64,000 nucleotides of DNA, taken from the NCBI GenBank assembly GCA_964486045.1, contig CAZALK010000012.1, positions 96,001 through 160,000 of the forward strand. Direction: 5' to 3'. This DNA comes from an uncultured archaeon. Its GTDB lineage: Archaea > Asgardarchaeota > Lokiarchaeia > Sigyniarchaeales > SOKP01. Made by a program: the position numbers and the translations under genes. Of this stretch, positions 8,385 to 17,053 are shown piece after piece (positions within the stretch are counted from its first letter, which is position 1; every line of letters starts with the position of its first letter). The notes below the pieces were generated by a model. That model worked only from the letters and a program-made list of their open reading frames with translations, did not search any database and was not told the DNA's origin.

Positions 8385-8488
8385 TGGGAGAGGGGGGATT
8401 TGAACCCCCGACCATTACCTGATCGCTTAAACCTTAAGAAATCTCTCGGCCCCCAGCCGAGTATCATACCAAGCTAGACTACCCTCCC
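8385..8488 (-). tRNA. tRNA-Pro(GGG) with 30-nt intron at non-canonical position 43/44 (intron 8415-8444)
   Basis: Acceptor GGGAGGG/CTCTCCC-A, anticodon arm CTCGG-CTGGGGG-CCGAG, T arm GGGGG-TTCAAAT-CCCCC. Removing AGATTTCTTAAGGTTTAAGCGATCAGGTAA leaves variable loop TGGTC and a 74-nt tRNA. No encoded CCA. Confidence 0.92.
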
Positions 8489-16689: not shown

Positions 16690-16694
16690 GGAGG
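16690..16694 (+). promoter_or_regulatory. Shine-Dalgarno-like GGAGG upstream of the histone ATG
   Basis: GGAGG lies 8 nt before the ATG at 16703. Confidence 0.6.
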
Positions 16695-16702
16695 AATAAA
16701 AA

Positions 16703-16978
16703 ATGGCTGGATCAGATTACATTTCTTGGTCACCAATAAGACGTCTCATGAAGCACAACGGGGCTGTAAGTCAATAAACCTCTTTTTGACTGGCTAAAAT
16801 CGTTGCGCGAGATGCCGTTAATGAGTTAGTTGATTGGATGGGTCAATCAGCAGAAACACTCACAAAAACCGCGTTAACTTTAACTAAACACTCTAAAATT
16901 CTTATAGGATTCCTATAAAAATAGGAAAGAAAGAAAGTAACGCGTAATGACATCTTATTGGCCATCAAGTATTTTTAA
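16703..16978 (+). CDS. Archaeal histone (71 aa), split by two 30-nt BHB introns; exons 16703-16767, 16798-16897, 16928-16978
   Basis: Spliced product MAGSDYISWSPIRRLMKHNGAVIVARDAVNELVDWMGQSAETLTKTALTLTKHSKRKKVTRNDILLAIKYF is a complete histone fold (PIRRL, GA.IV..DA, H.KRK.V...DI.LA). Each insert has two in-frame stops and a BHB fold. Confidence 0.88.
16768..16797 (+). other. Putative mRNA intron 1 (BHB), 30 nt
   Basis: Central helix GGCU/GGCU, 5' bulge GU|A, inner stem AGUCAA/UUGACU, 3' bulge AA|A(A), outer stem CAACG/CGUUG. In-frame TAA and TGA. Confidence 0.8.
16898..16927 (+). other. Putative mRNA intron 2 (BHB), 30 nt
   Basis: Central helix UCUA/UAGG, bulges AA|A and AA|A, inner stem UUCUUAUAGG/CCUAUAAAAA, distal outer pairing GCGUU..ACUUU/AAAGU.AACGC. 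In-frame TAA and TAG. Confidence 0.82.
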
Positions 16979-16987
16979 AGGGATTTT

Positions 16988-17053
16988 TGAATTAGGTAAT
17001 TTACTTAATTCATTAAAATATCTAATACTCTTTTTTTTATCTTCTTTTTTTTC
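16988..17053 (+). terminator. Hairpin plus oligo-T tracts downstream of the histone gene
   Basis: TGAATTAGGTA-ATT-TACTTAATTCA (11-bp stem), then T8 tracts at about 17030-17052. Confidence 0.5.

What the first reader, a model, noticed from the sequence alone, without database searches (positions are those of the whole stretch)
16703..16978. Histone gene interrupted by two bulge-helix-bulge introns: candidate endonuclease-type mRNA splicing in an Asgard archaeon
Seen: an SD-preceded ATG starts a histone fold broken by two 30-nt inserts (16768-16797, 16898-16927), each with two in-frame stops. Each folds as 4-bp central helix, 3-nt bulge and inner hairpin (GGCU/GGCU with GU|A and AA|A; UCUA/UAGG with AA|A and AA|A). 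Insert 1's second bulge is relaxed (3-4 A). Cutting after the second nucleotide of each bulge joins the exons in frame into a clean 71-aa histone. Known: archaeal EndA cleaves BHB motifs, and the documented protein-gene example I know is crenarchaeal cbf5. Inference: this is a functional, doubly spliced histone mRNA that gene callers miss. The unspliced RNA would yield only a 24-aa peptide, so histone supply would depend on tRNA-splicing activity.
Basis: partly seen in the sequence, partly recalled or inferred. Interest (0 to 1): 0.95.

Follow-up and report, generated by a model that had tools for sequence, protein, structure and literature searches.

The report
Histone gene split by tRNA-type introns
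A histone gene of an Asgard (Promethearchaeota) archaeon is interrupted by two 30-base inserts shaped like the introns that the tRNA-splicing enzyme removes; related genomes indicate that the gene works only after they are cut out of the mRNA, a kind of protein-gene splicing documented so far only for one crenarchaeal gene.

Summary
The gene at 16703-16978 is 65+30+100+30+51 nt. Removing 16768-16797 and 16898-16927 gives a 71-aa histone. Dozens of same-family genomes carry this gene uninterrupted, and they read exactly like the predicted spliced product. Other copies carry 30-31-nt inserts at eight or more other codon positions. Applied blind, the BHB cut rule (4-bp helix, cut after nt 2 of each 3-nt bulge) restores the conserved residue in every clear case, including a frame-shifting 31-nt intron. 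Sixteen independent introns share one architecture: 98% of central-helix and 94% of inner-stem cells are paired, against 35-50% when the partner is slid. Orthologous introns show compensatory changes. Genomes sharing intron 1 have dN/dS of 0.06-0.09, so this is not a pseudogene. The single-copy RNA polymerase A' gene carries the same kind of insert. The genome encodes an EndA alpha subunit with the broad-specificity loop, a second EndA paralogue and RtcB. Splicing itself is untested because no RNA run was listed. The introns are sparse, not dense. First-stage notes on other pieces of this genome had flagged similar inserts, and I verified several. No publication on this was found.

The parts
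16690..16694 (+). Shine-Dalgarno-like GGAGG, 8 nt before the ATG
   Evidence: Read directly. The same GGAGGA-N-ATG arrangement occurs in the C6 paralogue and in G019:C201.
16703..16767 (+). Exon 1 (65 nt: M1 to the first two bases of codon V22)
   Evidence: It matches uninterrupted orthologues, which read ...RRLMKHNGA(V/I/L).
16754..16809 (+). BHB motif 1. Outer helix 16756-16761/16800-16805; central helix 16762-16765/16792-16795; 5' bulge 16766-16768 (GU|A); inner hairpin 16769-16791; 3' bulge 16796-16799 (AA|AA, 4 nt).
   Evidence: The unconstrained MFE fold gives this structure. The BHB fold is -7.5 against an MFE of -7.9 kcal/mol.
16768..16797 (+). Intron 1 (30 nt, in-frame TAA and TGA)
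   Evidence: It is absent from the orthologues in L010-L025. Introns at the same site occur in G073 and G100, with compensatory stem changes. A relative in run X4 has it with one loop change.
16798..16897 (+). Exon 2 (100 nt)
16892..16928 (+). BHB motif 2 (relaxed, HBh' type). Central helix 16892-16895/16922-16925 (UCUA/UAGG); bulges 16896-16898 and 16926-16928 (AA|A each); inner hairpin 16899-16921 (8 of 9 pairs, loop GAUUC); no outer helix.
   Evidence: G100 has a 31-nt intron at the same site, with a U.G to G.U change in the central helix.
16898..16927 (+). Intron 2 (30 nt, in-frame TAA and TAG)
   Evidence: Its hairpin is 18/24 identical to intron 2 of the C6 paralogue, which lies 17 nt further 3' in the coding sequence.
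16928..16978 (+). Exon 3 (48 nt plus the TAA stop)
17031..17052 (+). Two oligo-T runs after the stop; possibly an archaeal-type terminator (inferred only)
   Evidence: Read. The function is inferred from general knowledge of archaeal oligo-T termination and was not tested.

Best explanation
The locus is a functional archaeal histone gene (HMf/CBFD_NFYB_HMF fold) whose pre-mRNA carries two 30-nt bulge-helix-bulge introns.

Each intron has the same layout. A 4-nt strand at its 3' end pairs with the last exon bases, minus two. The result is a 4-bp helix flanked by two 3-nt bulges, stacked on a 23-nt intron hairpin (about 9 bp plus a 5-nt loop).

Inferred mechanism: the archaeal splicing endonuclease EndA cuts after the second nucleotide of each bulge, and RtcB joins the exons. 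The enzyme here is the broad-specificity type, with an alpha subunit carrying the crenarchaeal-type loop plus a second EndA-fold subunit. The spliced mRNA encodes a 71-aa histone. The unspliced mRNA encodes only a 24-aa peptide.

Shown here: the anatomy, exact colinearity with uninterrupted orthologues, structure covariation, selection on the spliced frame, and the presence of the enzymes. Inferred: that EndA and RtcB do the cutting and joining, and that it happens in vivo.

The inserts belong to a sparse family of uniform mini-introns. It also interrupts other histone paralogues and unrelated genes, including single-copy rpoA', and it is gained, lost or relocated between closely related genomes.
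For: 1. Junctions. Uninterrupted 213- or 204-nt orthologues in dozens of same-family genomes read ...MKHNGA(V/I/L)IVARD... and ...KH(S/A)KRKK(V/I)TR... with no gap against the predicted product. One of them scores 34.6 bits on PF00808, above the 21.4 cut-off.

2. Blind cut rule. The BHB rule picks the right excision in other interrupted copies: C6 (K^HNGA, creating the conserved His codon from C|AU), G007, G020, G022, G063, G143, G150 and G024. It also works for G100's 31-nt intron, where read-through would shift the frame.

3. Structure. In the fixed register, central-helix cells are 98% paired and inner-stem cells 92-94%, against 35-50% when slid. That is 198/208 cells against 87 +/- 6.7 in shuffles. 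Every column uses many pair types. Introns at the window's site 1 in G073 and G100 show double compensatory changes (A-U to G-C, G-C to A-U, C-G to A-U). At site 2 the change is U.G to G.U.

4. Selection. Among the three genomes sharing intron 1, dN/dS is 0.06-0.09 with dS of at least 1, Fisher p <= 1e-10. Against uninterrupted orthologues it is below 0.1.

5. Essential gene. rpoA' is single-copy and carries a 30-nt TAA-bearing insert with a perfect BHB (-12.5 kcal/mol, equal to the MFE). Pfam Rpb1 domain 1 spans it (2-312 of 312). The region is exactly 30 nt shorter in 21 of 24 genus genomes searched. Thiolase_N and BcrAD_BadFG domains also span such inserts.

6. Machinery. The EndA alpha-like protein is closest to A. 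pernix 3P1Z_B (1e-33). It aligns without a gap through the specificity loop and keeps the K44 and R46 equivalents (function of these residues from PMC3241643). There is a second EndA paralogue and RtcB at 557 bits. Asgard EndA is reported as the (alpha-beta)2 type with this loop (PMC5829648).

7. Real DNA. The inserts are present in a second sample's contig.
Against: - No RNA evidence. No spliced junction, circular intron or junction peptide has been seen.
- Intron 2's BHB fold is weak: -2.5 kcal/mol against -6.3 for a competing hairpin. It also has no outer helix.
- Intron 1's 3' bulge has 4 nt instead of 3.
- Known EndA requirements do not explain the strict 30-nt length.
- Motif scans of the whole genome show no excess over decoy geometries. 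The family is therefore small, and the structure statistics rest on 16 introns whose boundaries were partly chosen with the BHB rule, although orthologue alignment fixes them to within 1-2 nt.
- Three uninterrupted histone paralogues could make this copy dispensable.
- One intron-bearing pair (C6 against G019:C201) differs by 6 nonsynonymous and 3 synonymous codons. That is too few to show constraint on its own.
Confidence: 0.85

Rival explanations
1. The gene is a pseudogene: a redundant histone copy inactivated by two short insertions and on its way to decay.
For: Three uninterrupted histone paralogues exist in the genome. Each insert carries two in-frame stops. C6 against G019:C201 shows 6 nonsynonymous and 3 synonymous codon changes.
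Against: dN/dS is 0.06-0.09 with dS of at least 1 among genomes that share intron 1. No frameshift or stop occurs in any exon of about 15 interrupted copies, and the SD and ATG are retained. The insert boundaries obey one precise structural rule. The same insert type sits in single-copy rpoA'.
Confidence: 0.03
2. The inserts are skipped by the ribosome (programmed translational bypassing over a hairpin, as in phage T4 gene 60) and are not removed from the RNA.
For: Each insert is a stop-containing hairpin of fixed length. For intron 1 a GCU...GCU pair could serve as take-off and landing codons (read).
Against: In 16 of 16 introns the 3 nt before the 5' boundary differ from the 3 nt before the 3' boundary. 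The GCU-GCU hop in intron 1 would give NGA-K-IVARD, whereas all orthologues have V, I or L there. The conserved feature is a helix between exon and intron 3' end flanked by two 3-nt bulges. That is the EndA signature, and it has no role in bypassing.
Confidence: 0.04
3. The inserts are removed from RNA by some machinery other than EndA/RtcB, or they are miniature mobile DNA elements whose BHB-like shape is incidental.
For: The uniform 30-nt size and the shared loop ending (10 of 16 loops end in UC) suggest a related, possibly mobile family. Hairpins 18/24 identical sit at sites 17 nt apart in two paralogues. No excess of the motif appears genome-wide.
Against: 30 nt is far too small for a group I or group II ribozyme (established knowledge). 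There are no target-site duplications: the flanking 4-mers are complementary, not repeated, in most cases. The cut positions implied by the orthologues coincide with EndA's known cut positions (PMC2738675). Mobility and EndA splicing are not exclusive, since tRNA BHB introns are thought to transpose (PMC4090602).
Confidence: 0.06
4. Assembly or binning artefact: the inserts are chimeric or erroneous sequence.
For: The genome is a MAG with an estimated 7.8% contamination.
Against: The locus is covered at about 244-278x in the source run. It is spanned by a 4401-nt contig of a second run with one difference, outside the gene. A third study holds a diverged relative with intron 1. Equivalent inserts occur in independent assemblies of at least 12 other genomes.
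Confidence: 0.01

Closest known systems
cbf5 pre-mRNA intron of Crenarchaeota (Aeropyrum, Sulfolobus, Desulfurococcales)
   Same: [quoted passage not shown] The cut lies between the 2nd and 3rd nucleotide of each bulge, made by a hetero-oligomeric EndA. It shows presence/absence between related species (PMC2738675).
   Different: cbf5 is one gene with one intron at one site. Here there are two introns per gene, at least eight sites across histone paralogues, and other genes (rpoA', thiolase, BcrAD ATPase). The architecture is a uniform 30 nt and the host is an Asgard archaeon. cbf5 splicing was shown by cDNA; this one has not been.
Archaeal tRNA BHB introns at non-canonical positions, and their proposed transposition in Thermoproteales
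   Same: The same motif and the same enzymes. Similar intron sequences occur at different sites, suggesting movement (PMC4090602). A broad-specificity EndA loop goes with intron diversity (PMC3241643, PMC5829648). Asgard tRNA genes are heavily interrupted (bioRxiv 10.64898/2026.10.13.758758).
   Different: The hosts here are mRNAs, so excision must be exact to the nucleotide to keep the frame, and unspliced RNA is translated into a truncated peptide. The preprint on Asgard tRNA introns does not mention mRNA.
HAC1/XBP1 unconventional mRNA splicing (Ire1 plus tRNA ligase/RtcB) in eukaryotes
   Same: Protein-only, spliceosome-independent removal of a short intron from an mRNA. Cuts are made in stem-loops, a tRNA-type ligase joins the exons, and the protein product changes as a result. 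This rests on established knowledge; RtcB's role is cited in PMC5829648 refs 5-7.
   Different: The nuclease is different (Ire1, not EndA) and the motif is different. It is a regulated stress response, and no regulation is shown here.
Phage T4 gene 60 translational bypass
   Same: A short stop-containing hairpin inside a coding sequence that does not appear in the protein.
   Different: Bypassing needs matched take-off and landing codons. These are absent here, and the conserved exon-intron helix with two bulges has no counterpart in bypassing.

Membership tests
Archaeal BHB (EndA-type) intron | 4-bp central helix flanked by two 3-nt bulges on opposite strands | tested here: met
   Intron 1: GGCU/GGCU with bulges GUA and AAA(A), the second being 4 nt. 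Intron 2: UCUA/UAGG with AAA and AAA. All four central pairs form in 15 of 16 family members, against 0-2 of 16 in slid registers.
Archaeal BHB (EndA-type) intron | Cutting after the 2nd nucleotide of each bulge yields the mature sequence | tested here: met
   The predicted junctions equal the uninterrupted orthologues without a gap. The rule also restores the frame for the 31-nt G100 intron.
Archaeal BHB (EndA-type) intron | Flanking helices (canonical hBHBh') | tested here: inconclusive
   An inner helix is present in both introns. A 6-bp outer helix is present in intron 1 but absent in intron 2, which is therefore the relaxed HBh' type. Relaxed forms are accepted only by broad-specificity EndA (PMC5829648).
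Archaeal BHB (EndA-type) intron | Host encodes an EndA able to cut relaxed motifs, plus an RNA ligase | tested here: met
   An alpha-like EndA keeps the specificity loop with the K44 and R46 equivalents. A second EndA paralogue is present, and so is RtcB. Whether the second copy is the structural beta subunit was not established.
Archaeal BHB (EndA-type) intron | Observed cleavage and ligation (spliced RNA, circular intron, in vitro cut) | not testable with these tools
   No RNA run is listed for this DNA, and no experiment was possible.
Archaeal histone (HMf type, Pfam PF00808 CBFD_NFYB_HMF) | Profile match above the curated cut-off over the histone fold | tested here: met
   The uninterrupted orthologue L010 scores 34.6 bits against a 21.4 cut-off, covering profile positions 6-65 of 65. 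The spliced window product is 89-94% identical to such orthologues. The read-through with inserts scores only 14.8 bits.
Pseudogene | Relaxed constraint (dN/dS near 1), or frameshifts and stops in the coding parts | tested here: not met
   dN/dS is 0.06-0.09 among intron-1-bearing genomes. The exons are intact in all copies.
Translational bypass element (gene 60 type) | Matching take-off and landing codons flanking the gap | tested here: not met
   The boundary triplets differ in 16 of 16 introns. The only candidate pair (GCU/GCU in intron 1) predicts a Lys that no orthologue has.

The most novel reading that the evidence does not exclude
Promethearchaeota (Lokiarchaeia-type Asgard archaea) harbour a mobile family of uniform 30-nt BHB mini-introns with a 9-bp stem and a 5-nt loop that often ends in UC. 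The family colonises protein-coding genes, including histones and the essential RNA polymerase A' subunit. It is gained, lost and relocated between species, and even between sites 17 nt apart in paralogues. Its 3' strand is re-matched to the local exon each time. That would be a living example of intron spread in mRNAs of the closest archaeal relatives of eukaryotes, run entirely by the tRNA-splicing machinery. It could make expression of some genes dependent on EndA/RtcB activity.
Probability: 0.45. Interest if true: 0.9.

Novelty: new variant of a known kind. Interest (0 to 1): 0.82.

Why it matters
Endonuclease-mediated splicing of a protein-coding mRNA in archaea is documented for essentially one gene, crenarchaeal cbf5.

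This finding differs in several ways:
- The same mechanism appears to act on several genes in an Asgard lineage.
- There are two introns in one 213-nt gene.
- Species differ in which introns they carry.
- One essential single-copy gene is affected.

The practical consequence is that gene callers miss or truncate these genes: this histone is called as a 24-aa ORF. Asgard proteomes, histone inventories and pseudogene counts are therefore biased.

The conceptual interest is threefold. It gives a testable system for how introns enter and move within coding sequence without a spliceosome. It allows a test of whether splicing capacity gates expression of chromatin and transcription proteins. It also adds a data point to the debate on RNA processing in the archaeal ancestors of eukaryotes.

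Tried and rejected
- **RNA evidence.** This says nothing about expression.
- **Genome-wide census by motif.** Three designs all failed to separate introns from background:
  - a loose BHB plus ORF rescue;
  - strong BHB motifs counted by length, which gave no peak at 30 nt over about 450 chance hits per length;
  - the strict architecture against decoy bulge sizes, with and without coding context.
  The only excess follows lengths divisible by 3, which same-frame gene junctions explain. The family is therefore sparse, and a census needs homology.
- **False positives exposed by Pfam or by eye:**
  - the LeuC/LeuD junction;
  - the start of a FAD_binding_2 gene (L142);
  - a Pol-beta NTase / proteasome pair (L141);
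  - a FlpD gene whose in-frame TGA adds no length and sits where VhuD-type proteins have selenocysteine;
  - a MaoC gene and a RhaA gene whose stop-containing stretch adds no length to the domain match.
- **ARAGORN in intron mode** found only 31 tRNAs in 5.2 Mb, and none in the window where Rfam finds one. It was not used.
- **An error of mine.** A dN/dS run with the window sequence one codon out of register gave a meaningless value near 0.9 and was redone.
- **Stop-codon reassignment** was rejected. All three stop codons occur in the two inserts, and one orthologous intron shifts the frame.
- **Literature.** Five full-text searches found no report of BHB introns in Asgard protein-coding genes. 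The library lacks most subscription journals.

Full report
**Observation**

The sequence is exactly as described. GGAGG (16690-16694) precedes an ATG at 16703. The frame runs 65 nt and is broken by 30 nt (16768-16797) containing TAA and TGA. It resumes for 100 nt and is broken again by 30 nt (16898-16927) containing TAA and TAG. It then runs 48 nt to a TAA at 16976-16978. The unspliced ORF is 24 aa. Deleting the two inserts gives a 71-aa protein with no stop.

For insert 1, the unconstrained minimum-energy fold is itself a helix-bulge-helix-bulge-helix. It has a 6-bp outer helix, a 4-bp GGCU/GGCU central helix, a GUA bulge, an inner hairpin and a four-A second bulge.

For insert 2, the proposed pairs exist: UCUA/UAGG, two AAA bulges and 8 of 9 inner pairs. 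That fold is worth only -2.5 kcal/mol against -6.3 for a competing hairpin, and there is no outer helix. It is a relaxed motif.

**The DNA is real**

The locus lies at 244-278x depth in the probable source run. A 4401-nt contig of a second run spans it with both inserts and a single difference, outside the gene. A third study holds a diverged relative with insert 1 (one loop substitution). It also holds another relative whose contig reads ...RRLMKHNGAV directly into ATCGTT with no insert.

**Host and machinery**

The window is G000:C12:96001-160000 of a 5.18-Mb, ~30% G+C MAG. Its relatives are deposited as Promethearchaeota/Promethearchaeia, the Lokiarchaeia-type Asgard archaea.

The genome has two EndA-domain genes.
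- One is closest to the catalytic alpha subunit of the A. pernix heterotetramer (3P1Z_B, 1e-33). It aligns without a gap through the crenarchaeal-specific loop and keeps the Lys and Arg equivalent to K44 and R46. Those residues were shown to confer cleavage of relaxed and non-canonical motifs (PMC3241643).
- The other is a divergent EndA-fold protein.

RtcB is present. This fits the report that Asgard archaea have the (alpha-beta)2 EndA with that loop (PMC5829648).

**Comparative evidence**

A search of the genome turned up a paralogue at C6:146563-146835. It also has two 30-nt stop-bearing inserts, but at different codons. Applying the BHB rule there joins C|AU into a His codon and gives ...RRLMKHNGA..., the residue found in the window gene and in all relatives.

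Across 135 genomes of the family, most copies of this histone are uninterrupted 213- or 204-nt genes. Their products read exactly like the predicted spliced product. One of them passes the Pfam histone cut-off (34.6 against 21.4 bits).

About a dozen genomes in four genera have interrupted copies. The inserts lie at eight or more distinct sites across four histone paralogue types. In every clear case the blind rule (4-bp helix, cut after nt 2 of each bulge) selects an excision that restores the conserved residues.
- G073 and G100 carry an intron at the window's site 1.
- G100 also has one at site 2, but it is 31 nt long. Read-through would shift the frame, and only the BHB cut restores ...KHAK-RKKVTRDD....
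- G150 has a 30-nt intron with no in-frame stop at the C6 site.
- A third histone of this genome (C7, with a Lys-rich N-terminal tail) also carries a 30-nt insert between ...YIAK and APIRR....

Three of the six histone genes in this genome are therefore interrupted.

**Structure statistics**

I laid 16 independent introns in one register: 13 from histone genes, plus rpoA' and two AIR-synthase-like genes. All share the plan of s1(4) NN|N, a 23-nt hairpin, s2(4) NN|N.

| Measure | Correct register | Control |
|---|---|---|
| Central-helix cells paired | 98% | 17-42% (partner slid 1-3 nt) |
| Inner-stem cells paired (9 bp) | 94% | 42-51% (slid) |
| Total paired cells | 198 of 208 | 87 +/- 6.7, maximum 107 (2000 shuffles) |

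Each column uses four to six pair types. Between orthologous introns at site 1 there are double compensatory changes at three stem pairs. At site 2 the exon change T to G (Ser to Ala) is matched by G to T in the intron strand.

One caveat applies. Some boundaries were chosen with the rule, which inflates the central-helix figure. The orthologue alignment fixes them to within 1-2 nt, and the inner-stem register was not a selection criterion.

Ten of 16 loops end in UC, and the 3' bulge is AAA or AUA in 13 of 16.

**Not a pseudogene**

The three genomes that share intron 1 differ at more than half of their synonymous sites but at 8-10% of nonsynonymous sites. That gives dN/dS of 0.06-0.09, p <= 1e-10. 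Against uninterrupted orthologues dN/dS is below 0.1.

The same class of insert interrupts the only rpoA' gene of the genome.
- A 30-nt TAA-bearing segment sits at C13:44101-44130, inside the zinc-clamp motif CMGHFGH^IELARPV.
- Its perfect BHB is also the MFE fold, at -12.5 kcal/mol.
- Pfam Rpb1 domain 1 runs across it, 2-312 of 312.
- 21 of 24 genus genomes searched have the region exactly 30 nt shorter. One shares the insert and one is split at the same place.

An essential single-copy gene cannot be dead, so these inserts must be removed or bypassed.

Pfam domains also span or flank inserts in several other genes:
- a BcrAD/BadFG ATPase (27 nt);
- a thiolase;
- a thymidine/AMP-phosphorylase-like gene;
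- two AIR-synthase-like genes;
- an AAA ATPase, which is cut at its Walker B motif.

**Rivals**

- Bypassing is unlikely. No boundary has matched take-off and landing triplets. The one possible hop, in intron 1, predicts a Lys where relatives have Val, Ile or Leu.
- Stop-codon reassignment is excluded by the use of all three stops and by the 31-nt intron.
- A ribozyme is excluded by size.
- A mobile-element origin is compatible with EndA splicing and does not compete with it. The hairpins of window intron 2 and C6 intron 2 are 18/24 identical (null maximum 14). They sit 17 nt apart in the coding sequence, and the 3' strand (UAGG against CGUG) matches the local exon in each. This resembles the intron transposition proposed for tRNA genes (PMC4090602).

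**How common**

The family is not dense. Motif scans show no excess over decoy geometries, so the family numbers tens at most in this genome. Several motif hits were false:
- ordinary gene junctions;
- a selenocysteine-type TGA in a FlpD gene;
- in-frame stops that add no length to the domain match.

Only homology-supported cases are counted. These are five introns in three histone genes, plus at least seven other genes, of which three have a domain spanning the insert.

**What is not shown**

No RNA run holds this DNA. Cleavage, ligation and translation of the spliced product are inferred.

**Known or new**

The mechanism is the one established for crenarchaeal cbf5 (PMC2738675). I found no report of it in Asgard protein genes. 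The recent preprint on Asgard tRNA introns does not mention mRNA.

The features that make this a new variant of a known kind are the multiplicity, the uniform 30-nt architecture, the turnover between species and the Asgard host.

First-stage notes on other pieces of this genome had flagged similar inserts. I tested the rpoA', thiolase/MoxR, AIR-synthase and third-histone claims, and they hold. The word 'dense' in one note does not.

Noticed in passing
window 8385-8488 (- strand): The only tRNA that Rfam finds in the window (49 bits). It carries a ~31-nt insertion between the anticodon stem and the T-arm, a non-canonical intron position. ARAGORN misses the gene altogether.
   Followed up: partly
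G000:C6:146563-146835 (+): A paralogous histone with two 30-nt BHB introns at other codons (K^HNGA and KKIT^RND). Both are shared with G019:C201 and G081:C36. Between genomes, intron 1 changes only in its loop.
   Followed up: yes
G000:C7:137236-137499 (+): A third interrupted histone with a Lys-rich N-terminal tail (MAKKKAPAKKKSEGYIAK). It has a 30-nt insert before APIRRLMK. The central helix is GCCA/UGGU and the inner stem has only 6 of 9 pairs.
   Followed up: partly
G000:C13:44101-44130 (+): The single-copy RNA polymerase A' gene carries a 30-nt TAA-bearing BHB intron inside the CMGHFGH/IELARP motif. The intron is absent from 21 of 24 genus genomes searched, shared by G017, and G022 is split at the same place.
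   Followed up: yes
G000:C17:6117-6524 (+), locus L153: A FlpD/VhuD-like hydrogenase delta subunit has an in-frame TGA that adds no length to the Pfam match (113 residues to 113 positions). It reads ...NG-TGA-YFGECDF. This is probably selenocysteine, not an intron.
   Followed up: partly
G000:C14:84129-84911 (-), locus L138: An L-rhamnose isomerase gene (363 bits) has an in-frame TGA inside a stretch that aligns to the profile without extra length. It could be a pseudogene, a recoding event or a sequencing error, but it is not a BHB intron.
   Followed up: no
G000:C17:2498-2941 (-), locus L141:1-444: A proteasome-subunit ORF matches the profile only from position 48 of 189, so the catalytic N-terminus is missing. 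It lies directly after a Pol-beta nucleotidyltransferase ORF. The missing first part may lie in another frame, possibly behind another intron.
   Followed up: no
L149 (G150:C95:10503-10739): An orthologous histone with a 30-nt BHB intron that has no in-frame stop. If left unspliced it would add 10 residues and would not truncate the protein.
   Followed up: partly
window 16899-16921 and G000:C6 intron 2: The intron hairpins are 18/24 identical but sit at coding positions 17 nt apart, with the 3' pairing strand re-matched to each exon. This suggests intron relocation. Ten of 16 intron loops end in UC.
   Followed up: partly
whole genome G000: ARAGORN in intron mode finds only 31 tRNA genes in a 99%-complete 5.2-Mb genome, several of them with implausible calls (Pyl, Stop). 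Many tRNA genes are probably hidden by multiple or non-canonical introns.
   Followed up: no
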